64,000 nt of DNA, from assembly GCF_016026235.1 (NCBI RefSeq), contig NZ_CP065613.1; one strand, 5' to 3'. Position numbers: made by a program. This stretch comes from Escherichia coli (GTDB lineage: Bacteria > Pseudomonadota > Gammaproteobacteria > Enterobacterales > Enterobacteriaceae). Shown one piece after another: positions 27,045 through 30,000 of this stretch. The first letter of the stretch is position 1; every line of letters starts with the position of its first letter.

Positions 27045-30000
27045 TTACACCTTTATTGGCGGTTTCCTCGCGGTGAGCTGGACTGACACTGTACAGGCCA
27101 GCCTGATGATTTTTGCCCTGATTCTGACACCGGTTATCGTCATTATCAGTGTCGGTGGCTTTGGTGACTCGCTGGAAGTGATCAAACAAAAGAGCATCGA
27201 AAACGTTGATATGCTCAAAGGTCTGAACTTTGTTGCCATTATCTCACTGATGGGTTGGGGGCTGGGTTACTTCGGGCAGCCGCACATTCTGGCGCGTTTT
27301 ATGGCGGCGGATTCTCACCACAGCATTGTCCATGCGCGTCGTATCAGTATGACCTGGATGATCCTCTGCCTGGCAGGGGCGGTGGCTGTCGGCTTCTTTG
27401 GGATTGCTTACTTTAATGAGCACCCGGCGGTAGCAGGCGCGGTAAACCAGAACGCCGAGCGCGTGTTTATCGAACTGGCGCAAATTCTGTTTAACCCGTG
27501 GATTGCCGGGATTCTGCTGTCGGCAATTCTGGCGGCGGTAATGTCAACCTTAAGTTGCCAACTGCTGGTGTGCTCCAGTGCGATTACCGAAGATTTATAC
27601 AAAGCGTTTCTGCGTAAACATGCCAGCCAGAAAGAGCTGGTGTGGGTAGGGCGTGTGATGGTGCTGGTGGTGGCGCTGGTGGCGATTGCGCTGGCGGCAA
27701 ACCCGGAAAACCGCGTGCTGGGCTTAGTGAGCTACGCATGGGCAGGCTTTGGCGCCGCGTTTGGTCCGGTGGTGCTGTTCTCGGTGATGTGGTCACGCAT
27801 GACGCGCAACGGTGCGCTGGCGGGGATGATCATCGGTGCGCTGACGGTTATCGTCTGGAAACAGTTCGGCTGGCTGGGGCTGTACGAAATTATTCCGGGC
27901 TTCATCTTCGGCAGTATCGGGATTGTAGTGTTTAGTTTGCTGGGTAAAGCGCCGTCAGCGGCGATGCAAAAACGCTTTGCCGAGGCCGATGCGCACTATC
28001 ATTCGGCTCCGCCGTCACGGTTGCAGGAAAGCTAAGGGACTTAGCCTGCGGCGGTTTTGTTTGGCTTCAGCAGCGGGTTGCGCTCCCTTAATGTGCCTCG
28101 CCATATAAATTGAATGGTGCAGGGAGCGCGCAGGGGGCGGCCAATCGCCGCGGCCCCCTGCACCCCGGGCTCTGGCGAACAAAATCGCCGCTGCGCGGTA
28201 CCTTCAGCTTATCCCCTTCGGCTACCGGGTCGGGCGCGAGGTAACGTCCTGTAAGACGCGCCCTCAGCCCACATCCATGTGGGCTGCCCCGGCCTTCGGG
28301 GAACGCTTCAGCGATTTTGACGCCACCAACACCCGCGCTGTTCTTATGTTCCGGGCAAAAAGTTAGATTTGATAATCGAGGATGGACGAAATTGCTTGAT
28401 ACACCCGCTTATCAGTTTTACATGGAAGTTTTGATGTATTGAGTCAGGACGGTTTTGTCGGCTGGATACGGCGTTTACGCGGCATCCGGCAAGAACACAT
28501 GGCTCGTTGTAAACAATCCCATCTTTGTACCTGGAATAATCGTTTATATCCCCTGGCATTACCTCTCTTTGTTTACATTTCAACATCATTTTATAAACAT
28601 TCCGCTTGTATTTTTCTTTACCGTAATGATAATCGCTATCACTGCGATTTACTTTTCTTTGCATAGATTGACTCAGAAAAACGTTTAAGGGTGGGTGGCA
28701 TGTTTGTTCCGTTTCTCATTATGTTGCGCGAAGGACTTGAAGCCGCGCTGATTGTCAGTTTGATTGCCAGCTATCTTAAGCGTACCCAGCGAGGCCGATG
28801 GATTGGTGTGATGTGGATTGGCGTGTTGCTTGCCGCTGCGTTGTGCCTGGGCTTGGGGATCTTCATTAACGAAACCACCGGCGAATTTCCGCAAAAAGAG
28901 CAGGAACTGTTTGAAGGTATCGTGGCGGTGATCGCCGTGGTGATCCTTACCTGGATGGTTTTCTGGATGCGCAAAGTGTCGCGCAACGTCAAAGTACAAC
29001 TGGAGCAGGCAGTCGATAGCGCATTGCAGCGTGGAAATCATCATGGCTGGGCGCTGGTGATGATGGTCTTTTTTGCCGTTGCAAGGGAAGGGCTGGAGTC
29101 GGTCTTTTTCCTGCTGGCGGCATTTCAACAAGATGTCGGGATCTGGCCGCCGCTGGGTGCAATGCTCGGTCTTGCTACTGCCGTGGTGCTAGGCTTCCTG
29201 CTCTACTGGGGCGGTATTCGCCTCAATCTTGGTGCATTTTTTAAATGGACCAGCCTGTTTATTCTCTTCGTCGCCGCAGGGCTGGCGGCTGGTGCCATTC
29301 GCGCATTTCATGAAGCCGGATTGTGGAACCACTTTCAGGAAATCGCCTTCGATATGAGCGCAGTGCTCTCAACTCACTCGCTGTTTGGCACGCTGATGGA
29401 AGGGATTTTTGGCTATCAGGACGCACCGAGCGTCAGCGAAGTCGCCGTCTGGTTTATTTATCTCATCCCGGCGCTGGTGGCATTTGCTCTGCCACCACGC
29501 GCAGGGGCGACAGCGTCTCGCTCCGCGTAACAAATACGACGCAAACTCTTGCTTAGTTACAACATACTTTAAAGGGATAGTCTCGTCATGACCATTAACT
29601 TCCGCCGTAACGCATTGCAGTTGAGCGTGGCTGCGCTGTTTTCTTCTGCTTTTATGGCTAACGCCGCTGATGTGCCGCAGGTCAAAGTGACCGTGACGGA
29701 TAAGCAGTGCGAACCGATGACCATTACGGTTAACGCCGGGAAAACACAGTTCATTATTCAGAACCATAGCCAGAAGGCGCTGGAGTGGGAGATCCTCAAA
29801 GGCGTGATGGTGGTGGAAGAGCGGGAAAATATCGCCCCTGGTTTTAGCCAGAAAATGACGGCGAATTTACAGCCTGGCGAATACGATATGACCTGCGGTC
29901 TGCTGACTAACCCGAAAGGGAAGTTGATCGTCAAAGGTGAGGCAACGGCGGATGCGGCGCAAAGTGATGCGCTGTTAAGTCTTGGTGGTGCAATTACTGC

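What the first reader, a model, noticed from the sequence alone, without database searches (positions are those of the whole stretch)
28040..28340. GC-rich block of nested perfect palindromes between putP and efeU
Seen in sequence: about 300 bp of roughly 65-70% GC with no credible ORF, containing ggtgcaggg...ccctgcacc (28107-28163) enclosing an imperfect inverted repeat (cagggggcggcc ... ggccccctg), plus cagcccacat-cc-atgtgggctg (28265-28286). These do not look like canonical REP units. Inference: a different intergenic repeat family, a small structured RNA, or a remnant of a mobile element.
Basis: seen in the sequence. Interest (0 to 1): 0.35.

Follow-up and report, generated by a model that had tools for sequence, protein, structure and literature searches.

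The report
Full-length TRIP1b / RRS repeat element
The GC-rich block after putP is an intact copy of the known E. coli TRIP1 repeat, also called the replication risk sequence (RRS), a strongly folding DNA element shown in K-12 to make the replication machinery leave short gaps; it is therefore already known, although its folded core also matches a catalogued "RNA motif" (TwoAYGGAY), a link I did not find in the papers I searched.

Summary
Window 28066-28342 is a 277-bp block of about 65% GC with no ORF, packed with inverted repeats, lying between putP and efeU.

It is not new. It is the TRIP1b locus of the TRIP1 repeat family (Rudd 1999; Li 2024). The same family was renamed RRS, "replication risk sequence" (Pham 2023/2024).

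K-12 carries a copy with an internal deletion of about 123 bp at this site. The window carries the intact allele, found in 945 of 5426 complete E. coli genomes.

- **Structure.** Across 67 diverged copies from Enterobacteriaceae, 11 helices (61 pairs) are 94% paired, and 40 pairs show compensatory changes.
- **Folded strand.** Wobble asymmetry points to the window's minus strand. That is the strand carrying the published G-quadruplex (G4) motif.
- **Orientation.** In this copy the G-rich strand is the leading-strand template, which is the weak, "inverted" RRS orientation. Its G4 motif differs from the published one at two positions.
- **Link to an RNA family.** The right half has two hairpins with invariant CA(N)GGA(Y)G loops and is homologous to Rfam TwoAYGGAY. 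A Kluyvera full-length homologue scores 54 bits against a threshold of 43. The window copy scores only 25.

The most likely mechanism is a DNA structure that impedes replication. An RNA or CsrA-binding role is not excluded.

The parts
28066..28342 (.). Whole TRIP1b / RRS-family element, full-length allele
   Evidence: 87-89% identical over 267-281 bp to the K-12 copies at aqpZ-lysO (TRIP1a = RRS-lysO) and yohP-dusC (TRIP1c = RRS-dusC). The nhmmer envelope is 28048-28359. The locus matches TRIP1b as defined in PMC10888264.
28081..28128 (-). Helix P1 (28081-28087 with 28122-28128), closing a variable 34-nt loop
   Evidence: 97.6% of cells are paired and 3 of 7 pairs show double changes (UA 35 / CG 30; AU 35 / CG 23 / UA 7).
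28130..28161 (-).
   Evidence: 98% paired, and 7 of 9 pairs have compensatory changes across 67 copies.
28148..28166 (-). G-rich tract GGGGTGCAGGGGGCCGCGG on the minus strand, the counterpart of the published RRS G4 motif GGGGGTGCAGGGGGCGGCGG; it overlaps one arm of P2
   Evidence: Sequence and motif from PMC11194060. G4Hunter gives 1.52 here against 1.84 for the K-12 RRS copies. The strongest G-rich window falls at these same alignment columns in 53 of 67 copies.
28173..28325 (-). Right module, resembling TwoAYGGAY: outer stem P3 (28173-28187 with 28312-28325) enclosing P4 to P10
   Evidence: Rfam TwoAYGGAY hit at 28320-28182 on the minus strand, 25.3 bits. In P3, 7 of 10 pairs have double changes.
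28188..28198 (-). Small hairpin P4 (CCGC-TGC-GCGG)
   Evidence: 99.6% paired, with 3 of 4 pairs covarying (CG 43 / UA 15 / GC 6).
28206..28307 (-). Multi-way junction core (P5 to P8) carrying hairpins A and B
   Evidence: P5 and P6 covary; P7 and P8 are nearly invariant. This core was used to build model R1, which recovers the Salinicola repeats.
28232..28263 (-). Hairpin B (P9); the loop reads ACAGGACG on the minus strand
   Evidence: 90% paired, with 5 of 7 pairs showing double changes. The loop letters CA(N)GGA.G are invariant or nearly so in 17 diverse copies.
28265..28286 (-).
   Evidence: 95.7% paired, with 7 of 9 pairs covarying. The loop CA.GGATG is invariant.
28161..28282 (.). Segment missing from the K-12 TRIP1b allele (a deletion of about 121-125 bp between short CTGC-CCCGG homologies)
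   Evidence: In genomes with the deleted allele, the flank-anchored query spans 348 bp instead of 471. Li et al. report a 125-bp deletion.

Best explanation
The block is an intact copy, at the putP-efeU (TRIP1b) locus, of the TRIP1 intergenic repeat family, which is the same as the 'replication risk sequence' (RRS). It is a non-coding, GC-rich DNA element of about 277 bp. When unwound, its strands fold into a conserved set of hairpins: a left module with two hairpins and a right module that is a multi-way junction carrying two GGA-loop hairpins. A G-rich tract that could form a G-quadruplex lies between the modules.

Shown by others for the two full-length K-12 copies: when the G-rich strand is the lagging-strand template, the fold blocks DNA polymerases, the replisome skips ahead and a gap of up to 2 kb is left. 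RecA and SSB load into that gap. At least one copy is conditionally essential, and removing or inverting both changes genome-wide supercoiling.

Inferred for this copy: its G-rich strand is the leading-strand template, and its G4 motif carries two changes. It should therefore behave like an inverted RRS, giving no or few gaps, any of which would arise through the weaker fold of the complementary strand. It is also a substrate for homologous recombination with the other copies.

My confidence is about 0.95 for the identity and about 0.5 for this mechanism applying to this copy.
For: Identity:
- The copy is 87-89% identical over its full length to K-12 TRIP1a and TRIP1c.
- It sits at the same locus as K-12 TRIP1b, which lacks the middle 121-125 bp.
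- The family, its loci and copy numbers are described in PMC10888264.
- TRIP1 is equated with RRS in PMC11194060.

Mechanism in K-12, from the literature:
- Polymerase blocks, lagging-strand RecA/SSB gaps, dependence on orientation and effects on topology.
- In vitro, an inverted RRS still gives lagging-strand gaps, at lower frequency.

My own tests:
- The fold is under selection. 61 pairs are 93.9% paired, against 35-46% when the partners are slid. 40 pairs have double changes, and 0 of 500 shuffles reach the observed value.
- Tolerated mismatches are A:C on the plus strand (71) rather than G:T (24). They are therefore wobble pairs on the minus strand, which is the published G4 strand; 43 sequences against 3 show this direction.
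- G-richness is conserved on that strand, at the same columns in 53 of 67 copies.
- The two functional K-12 copies share an orientation relative to replication but not relative to transcription. The GGA strand is antisense to aqpZ-lysO but sense to dusC. This favours a replication-level constraint.
- GC skew places the window's plus strand as the leading strand.
Against: - No experiment has addressed this locus or this allele.
- The published G4 motif is not exactly present (GGGGTGCAGGGGGCCGCGG).
- The orientation is the one that gave no RecA/SSB peak in vivo.
- A pure 'any stable structure blocks the polymerase' model does not explain why two hairpin loops keep an invariant CA(N)GGA(Y)G sequence while their stems covary. 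It also does not explain why the same core recurs in Salinicola and is catalogued as an RNA motif.
- A canonical G3+ quadruplex motif occurs in only 2 of 67 copies, whereas hairpin P2, which competes with it, is 98% paired with 7 of 9 pairs covarying.
- Copy numbers of 7-14 in Klebsiella and Enterobacter do not fit a simple picture of two valves flanking Ter.
Confidence: 0.72

Rival explanations
1. The element is, or also encodes, a structured non-coding RNA of the TwoAYGGAY type, read from the window's minus strand. Its two GGA-loop hairpins would bind a CsrA dimer and so titrate or recruit CsrA.
For: - Rfam TwoAYGGAY hits lie on the minus strand of all three E. coli paralogues tested, at 25.3, 30.9 and 30.6 bits.
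- A full-length Kluyvera homologue passes the family threshold, 54.2 bits against 43, as do two Salinicola copies.
- The loops CAUGGAUG and ACAGG(G)AYG are invariant while the stems covary. From my own knowledge, they closely match the CsrA SELEX consensus RUACARGGAUGU.
- TwoAYGGAY has been proposed as a CsrA binder (PMC4333381).
- Wobble asymmetry favours this strand.
Against: - No sigma-70-like promoter and no intrinsic terminator flank the block.
- Coordinate searches of the CsrA CLIP-seq supplements in both K-12 numbering schemes found no entry at TRIP1a or TRIP1c, although I did not confirm that the peak list is stored as coordinates.
- Wobble pairs are rare overall (1.8% and 0.6% of cells), which is unusual for an RNA.
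- The two K-12 full-length copies have opposite transcriptional contexts but the same replication context.
- Direct experiments show a DNA-level effect.
Confidence: 0.15
2. The element is a non-autonomous mobile or proliferating repeat, similar to a REPIN or MITE. Its full unit would be a heterotypic inverted pair of about 650 bp, with the E. coli copies being single halves.
For: - Copy number varies from 1 to 8 in E. coli and reaches 14 in a Klebsiella chromosome.
- TRIP1d and TRIP1e are present in only some strains.
- In Citrobacter, Enterobacter, Kluyvera and Pseudocitrobacter, copies come as '+ then -' pairs with the right ends abutting. Each pair combines one subtype with a CATCCATG loop and one with a CATCCCTG or other divergent loop.
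- The aqpZ-lysO copy is flipped in strain E69.
- The family is also multi-copy in Salinicola.
Against: - There are no terminal inverted repeats or target-site duplications.
- At alx-sstT the strain lacking the element carries a different repeat instead, so this is a replacement and not a clean insertion.
- No transposase or RAYT gene was seen next to any copy (not searched for systematically).
- No matches were found in phage records, and the 'plasmid' matches are mislabelled chromosomes or captured chromosomal segments.
- Each E. coli type sits at one fixed locus.
Confidence: 0.08
3. The element acts as a 3'-UTR RNA element of putP: a REP-like stabiliser or transcriptional insulator read in the plus sense.
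For: - The block starts 13-30 nt after the putP stop codon, with no terminator in between.
- Most copies lie next to the 3' ends of genes.
- The plus-strand RNA also folds well, with z = -4.05.
Against: - Orientation relative to the upstream gene is not fixed: TRIP1d and the E69 copy are reversed, and the informative tandem cases split 10 to 3 with many of them orthologous.
- Wobble asymmetry points to the other strand.
- No U-tract is present.
Confidence: 0.05

Closest known systems
TRIP1 repeats (Rudd 1999; Li et al. 2024, PMC10888264), also called RRS, replication risk sequences (Pham et al. 2023, PMC10287960; 2024, PMC11194060)
   Same: Homologous over its whole length (87-89% identity). 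It sits at the catalogued TRIP1b locus, is GC-rich and folds stably. The G-rich tract is at the same position and on the same strand of the element.
   Different: K-12's TRIP1b is a 146-bp remnant, whereas this is the intact allele of about 277 bp, found in 945 of 5426 genomes. The G4 motif differs at two positions. The G-rich strand is the leading-strand template, opposite to RRS-lysO and RRS-dusC. By K-12 coordinates the locus is about 0.5 Mb from dif rather than 0.65 Mb; the dif position is from my own knowledge.
TwoAYGGAY RNA motif (Rfam RF01731; Weinberg et al. 2010)
   Same: The right module has an outer stem enclosing two adjacent hairpins whose loops carry A(Y/R)GGAY. Homologues of the element in Kluyvera and Salinicola pass the Rfam threshold.
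   Different: The window copy scores 25.3 bits against a threshold of 43. Its second loop is one base short (CAGGAC). TRIP1 also has an extra left module (P1, P2, G-tract) that is not in the Rfam model. TwoAYGGAY is catalogued as an RNA, whereas the RRS evidence is for DNA.
REP / BIME elements
   Same: Both are intergenic, GC-rich and palindromic, are often found at the 3' ends of genes, and occur in inverted arrangements in some species.
   Different: There is no sequence similarity. This element is about 8 times longer, has a multi-helix fold, and occurs in 1-8 copies rather than hundreds. A real REP lies 120 bp downstream at 28460-28496.
CsrB / CsrC-type CsrA-sequestering sRNAs
   Same: GGA motifs are presented in hairpin loops, spaced suitably for a CsrA dimer.
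   Different: There are only two sites. No promoter or terminator was found, no expression or CLIP evidence was found, and there is no sequence homology.
Neisseria gonorrhoeae pilE G4 element
   Same: A G-rich structure on one strand that triggers a gap or nick-dependent process; the RRS authors cite it as the only bacterial analogue.
   Different: It is a short canonical G3 quadruplex that depends on an sRNA promoter and serves antigenic variation. It has no multi-hairpin fold.

Membership tests
TRIP1 / RRS | Full-length sequence homology to K-12 TRIP1a (RRS-lysO) and TRIP1c (RRS-dusC) | tested here: met
   86.8% identity over 281 bp and 88.8% over 267 bp; nhmmer E = 2e-88.
TRIP1 / RRS | Located at a catalogued TRIP1 locus (TRIP1b lies downstream of putP and upstream of ycdN/efeU) | tested here: met
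   Annotation of an identical record, the K-12 region and the locus definition.
TRIP1 / RRS | GC-rich (62-65%) with very stable secondary structure | tested here: met
   GC 0.59-0.69; -129 and -140 kcal/mol, z = -4.05 and -4.88.
TRIP1 / RRS | G4-forming motif 5'-GGGGGTGCAGGGGGCGGCGG-3' on the sense strand | tested here: inconclusive
   The window has GGGGTGCAGGGGGCCGCGG on the minus strand at 28166-28148, with one G fewer and a GGCGG-to-GCCGCGG change. G4Hunter gives 1.52 against 1.84. A two-tetrad G4 is still conceivable.
TRIP1 / RRS | G4 strand is the lagging-strand template | tested here: not met
   GC skew is positive in 7 of 8 8-kb bins, so the plus strand is the leading strand. The G-rich tract is on the minus strand, which makes it the leading-strand template. 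This matches K-12 synteny, where putP is co-directional with the fork.
TRIP1 / RRS | Triggers RecA/SSB-bound post-replication gaps; conditionally essential; affects supercoiling | not testable with these tools
   Needs ssGap-seq, Psora-seq or genetics in a strain carrying this allele.
TwoAYGGAY (Rfam RF01731) | Score at or above the Rfam gathering threshold (43 bits) | tested here: not met
   The window scores 25.3 bits and the K-12 paralogues 30.9 and 30.6. Homologues do pass: Kluyvera 54.2 and Salinicola 44.8 and 44.4.
TwoAYGGAY (Rfam RF01731) | Two adjacent hairpins with AYGGAY terminal loops, enclosed by a stem | tested here: inconclusive
   Hairpin A has AUGGAU. Hairpin B reads CAGGAC here (one base shorter), AGGGAU in K-12, and ACGGAC or AUGGAU in Klebsiella, Kluyvera and Leclercia. 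The enclosing stems are present and covary.
TwoAYGGAY (Rfam RF01731) | Exists as an RNA transcript | not testable with these tools
   No promoter or terminator consensus was found. No expression data were examined.
REP / BIME | Imperfect palindrome of about 35 nt matching the REP consensus | tested here: not met
   The REP-derived Rfam model naRNA4 matches only 28460-28496, outside the block.
CsrA-sequestering sRNA | Own promoter and terminator; CsrA binding in vivo | tested here: inconclusive
   No promoter or terminator was found. Coordinate searches of the Potts 2017 supplements found nothing at the K-12 copies. Coordinate storage and growth conditions limit this test.
MITE / REPIN-like mobile repeat | Terminal inverted repeats, target-site duplication, and clean filled versus empty sites | tested here: not met
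   At alx-sstT, the filled strain and K-12 differ by replacement with another repeat, with no duplication. Only one polymorphic site was examined.

The most novel reading that the evidence does not exclude
RRS/TRIP1 elements and the Rfam 'TwoAYGGAY RNA' are one ancient family of structured nucleic acid, spread across Enterobacteriaceae, Halomonadaceae (Salinicola) and possibly beyond. Their invariant CA(N)GGA(Y)G hairpin loops would be read by a specific factor. That would mean one of two things. Either the catalogued RNA motif is really a DNA replication or topology element, or the replication risk sequences act through, or double as, a CsrA-type GGA-loop-binding interaction rather than through a G-quadruplex alone. 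The conserved hairpin P2, not the G4, would then be the polymerase block.
Probability: 0.2. Interest if true: 0.7.

Novelty: already known. Interest (0 to 1): 0.3.

Why it matters
As a finding about this window it is ordinary: the block is a catalogued repeat with a published function.

Three points may still interest people who work on RRS.

- **A third intact copy.** About one in six complete E. coli genomes carries an intact third copy at putP-efeU, in the 'inverted' orientation. This is a natural experiment on the effects of copy number and orientation.
- **What is conserved.** The constrained feature is a precise multi-helix fold with invariant GGA loops, and the fold includes a hairpin that competes with the proposed G-quadruplex. 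That suggests direct mutational tests of hairpin against G4 against loops.
- **Link to TwoAYGGAY.** The core is the Rfam TwoAYGGAY motif. This links a motif of unknown function, found in gut metagenomes and Gammaproteobacteria, to an element with a replication phenotype.

Tried and rejected
- **Rfam at gathering level.** Nothing reaches threshold in the block; there is only a sub-threshold TwoAYGGAY hit.
- **Phage collection.** No match.
- **Plasmid collection.** The hits are mislabelled chromosomes or plasmids that captured chromosomal segments, so they are not evidence of mobility.
- **Orientation rule.** I first thought the element was always co-oriented with the upstream gene (8 of 8). I rejected this after seeing that copies between convergent genes are uninformative, that TRIP1d and the E69 copy are reversed, and that the informative tandem cases split 10 to 3 with many orthologous.
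- **Empty-site comparison for target duplications.** At alx-sstT, K-12 holds a different repeat, so no boundaries could be read. The TRIP1e reference record was not in the collection.
- **Automated helix finder on the alignment.** Too noisy, so I replaced it with helices taken from minimum-free-energy folds and checked pair by pair.
- **Promoter and terminator scans.** None in the window. At the centre of a Citrobacter inverted pair there were only weak 9-of-12 promoter matches, away from the centre.
- **CsrA CLIP-seq supplements.** Gene names and coordinate prefixes in both K-12 numbering schemes gave no peak at TRIP1a or TRIP1c.
- **Outer palindrome.** GGTGCAGGG...CCCTGCACC is not conserved outside E. 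coli and is mutually exclusive with P2.
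Full report
**Observation**

The region 28040-28340 lies between putP (26527-28035, +) and efeU (28691-29530, +). These gene assignments come from an identical RefSeq record.

- GC content is 0.59-0.69 in 100-nt windows, falling to 0.35-0.47 just downstream.
- Only 40-55 aa ORFs overlap the region.
- Both strands fold far better than shuffled sequence, with z = -4.05 and -4.88.
- A canonical REP lies separately at 28460-96.

**It is a repeat family, and a known one**

Megablast of the block against 5,426 complete E. coli genomes found 17,763 places, with a median of 3 and a maximum of 8 per genome. In K-12 the copies are:

- downstream of aqpZ (86.8% identity over 281 bp);
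- between yohP and dusC (88.8% over 267 bp);
- at putP-efeU itself, where the middle of the element is missing.

A literature search on these gene names led to Li et al. 2024 (PMC10888264). That paper names these copies TRIP1a, TRIP1c and TRIP1b, following Rudd 1999. It adds TRIP1d (alx-sstT) and TRIP1e (copA-ybaP), and shows that the repeats mediate inversions.

A second search showed that TRIP1a and TRIP1c are the 'replication risk sequences' RRS-lysO and RRS-dusC of Pham et al.. Their published properties are:

- They are 222-bp GC-rich repeats, each about 650 kb from dif.
- The strand carrying GGGGGTGCAGGGGGCGGCGG is the lagging-strand template.
- That strand blocks Pol I, II and IV in vitro.
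- In vivo the elements trigger lagging-strand gaps of up to 2 kb, which are loaded with RecA and SSB.
- At least one copy is conditionally essential.
- Deleting or inverting both changes global supercoiling.
- Inverted copies give no RecA/SSB peak in vivo.
- A 2026 preprint reports lower-frequency lagging-strand gaps in vitro for the inverted orientation.

**What is particular to this copy**

1. It is the intact allele at the TRIP1b locus. A flank-anchored 471-bp query is fully covered in 945 of 5,426 genomes. Most other genomes show the allele with a deletion of about 123 bp (74-78% coverage, 348-bp span). The K-12 deletion removes roughly 28161-28282 and lies between short CTGC-CCCGG homologies.
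2. The counterpart of the G4 motif is on the window's minus strand (28166-28148) and reads GGGGTGCAGGGGGCCGCGG. Its G4Hunter score is 1.52, against 1.84 for the K-12 RRS copies.
3. GC skew is positive in 7 of 8 8-kb bins, so the plus strand is the leading strand. The G-rich strand is therefore the leading-strand template. This is the 'inverted' orientation and is opposite to RRS-lysO in the same replichore.

**The fold is under selection**

BLAST of plasmid records (in practice, mislabelled chromosomes) and one pattern scan of GTDB species genomes found homologues in many genera: Escherichia species, E. albertii, Citrobacter, Klebsiella (14 places in one chromosome), Enterobacter, Pseudescherichia, Pseudocitrobacter, Kluyvera, Leclercia, Silvania and Pantoea.

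I aligned 67 full-length copies that are less than 93% identical to each other (A3).

- RNAalifold predicted 41 pairs, 28 of them with compensatory changes.
- A curated structure of 11 helices and 61 pairs is 93.9% paired, against 35-46% when the partners are slid by 1-3 columns.
- 40 pairs and 510 cells show changes on both sides, and 0 of 500 shuffles reach the observed values.

**Which strand folds**

In the supported helices, mismatches are A:C on the plus strand 71 times and G:T 24 times. Forty-three sequences have more A:C than G:T, and only 3 the reverse. A:C on the plus strand is a G:U or G:T wobble on the minus strand. The constrained strand is therefore the minus strand, which is the published G4 strand and the strand of the Rfam hit.

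Two caveats apply. The sequences are related, so these counts are not independent. Wobble pairs are also rare overall.

**G4 versus hairpin**

- The most G-rich 25-nt window lies on the minus strand at the same alignment columns in 53 of 67 copies, with a median score of 1.76.
- A canonical motif with four runs of three or more G occurs in only 2 of 67 copies.
- The tract overlaps one arm of hairpin P2, which is 98% paired with 7 of 9 pairs covarying.
- My inference is that the hairpin is at least as constrained as the quadruplex, and the two structures are mutually exclusive.

**Link to TwoAYGGAY**

- Rfam gives sub-threshold TwoAYGGAY hits on the minus strand of the window copy (25.3 bits) and of both K-12 full-length copies (30.9 and 30.6 bits; threshold 43).
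- In 17 diverse cores, the loops of the two adjacent hairpins are invariant, CA.GGATG and CA(N)GGA.G, while the stems covary.
- The pattern scan also picked up multi-copy repeats in Salinicola. Two of these pass the Rfam threshold, at 44.8 and 44.4 bits.
- A covariance model built only from enterobacterial TRIP1 cores finds all 23 Salinicola copies, with E-values from 5e-10 to 1e-6. It finds none of the chance pattern matches in other phyla.
- The Salinicola element has the same architecture, including a G-run and a GC hairpin after the core.
- A full-length TRIP1 homologue in Kluyvera genomosp. 3 scores 54.2 bits for TwoAYGGAY.

The right module of TRIP1/RRS therefore belongs to the same family as TwoAYGGAY, although the window copy itself does not reach the threshold. 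Gardner and Eldai (PMC4333381) proposed TwoAYGGAY as a CsrA binder. From my own knowledge, the loops resemble the CsrA SELEX consensus.

**Tests of the RNA and mobile-element rivals**

- No sigma-70-like promoter or intrinsic terminator was found around the block.
- Searching the supplements of the E. coli CsrA CLIP-seq study by coordinate found no entry at TRIP1a or TRIP1c. This is a weak test.
- The two experimentally active K-12 copies share an orientation relative to replication but not relative to transcription. That favours a DNA-level constraint.
- At alx-sstT, the strain with TRIP1d and K-12 differ by replacement with another repeat, with no target duplication.
- Orientation relative to neighbouring genes is not fixed.
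- In several genera the copies form heterotypic inverted pairs with abutting right ends. This could place a G-strand on the lagging-strand template whichever way the fork travels. That is my inference and is untested.

**Verdict**

The block is real and is a known element: TRIP1b, a member of the RRS family. The window carries its intact allele, in the weak orientation and with a variant G-tract.

The best-supported mechanism is a DNA fold that impedes replication and provides homology for rearrangements. The invariant GGA loops and the TwoAYGGAY homology are not explained by that model, and they keep an RNA or protein-recognition reading open.

Noticed in passing
window 28460-28496: A canonical REP unit (GGCTGGATACGGCGTTTACGCGGCATCCGGCAA) lies 120 bp downstream of the block. 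It is picked up as a partial match to the REP-derived Rfam model naRNA4 (28 bits).
   Followed up: partly
L133 (K-12 NC_000913.3) about 2080-2300, the alx-sstT intergenic region: Where other strains carry TRIP1d, K-12 carries a different GC-rich repeat with CCCTCTCCC...GGGAGAGGG...GGGGTGAGGG motifs. From memory it resembles boxC, but I did not identify it. A similar GAGGGAGAGGG..GGGGTGAGGGG tract flanks the TRIP1 copies in Leclercia and Silvania (A3 rows L097, L100, L101, L080).
   Followed up: no
L009, L017, L028, L029, L054, L083, L117, L119 (Citrobacter); L043-L049 (Enterobacter sp. ENT03); L069 (Kluyvera); L031 (Pseudocitrobacter): TRIP1 homologues occur as inverted pairs, always '+ then -' with the right ends 0-125 bp apart. 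Each pair combines two different subtypes, for example a hairpin-A loop of CATCCATG with one of CATCCCTG or with a divergent 'B' subfamily. The AT-rich centre has no clear promoter.
   Followed up: partly
L066 (E. coli E69, CP089930.1) 3825-4275 compared with L006 (K-12): At aqpZ-lysO the element is flipped relative to K-12 and the aqpZ terminator hairpin is absent. Only the lysO-proximal flank is shared. This fits Li et al.'s report of both orientations at TRIP1a and TRIP1c.
   Followed up: partly
L003 (NZ_CP134387.1, plasmid pMTY11352_3) 3990-4189: An 88-kb E. coli plasmid carries a chromosomal segment from macA to poxB that includes aqpZ, lysO and an internally deleted TRIP1a copy.
   Followed up: no
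L018 (MAG labelled Desulfacinum), L070 (MAG labelled Sporobacter termitidis), L030 (MAG labelled Proteobacteria): Contigs in MAGs assigned to unrelated taxa carry near-identical Klebsiella- or E. coli-type TRIP1 copies. These are probably binning contamination. Several PLSDB 'plasmids' of 0.7-5.4 Mb (for example CP125156.1) are evidently chromosomes.
   Followed up: no
L128-L130 (Photobacterium arenosum): Three loci matched the search pattern, and the TRIP1-core model gives marginal hits (26-27 bits, E about 1e-3, GC about 0.5). This may be a distant AT-richer branch of the family in Vibrionaceae.
   Followed up: partly
window 28344-28664 (- strand): A 106-aa ATG ORF fills most of the AT-rich stretch between the block and efeU. 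It is not annotated in the identical RefSeq record and lies where the efeU promoter region is expected. I did not examine it.
   Followed up: no
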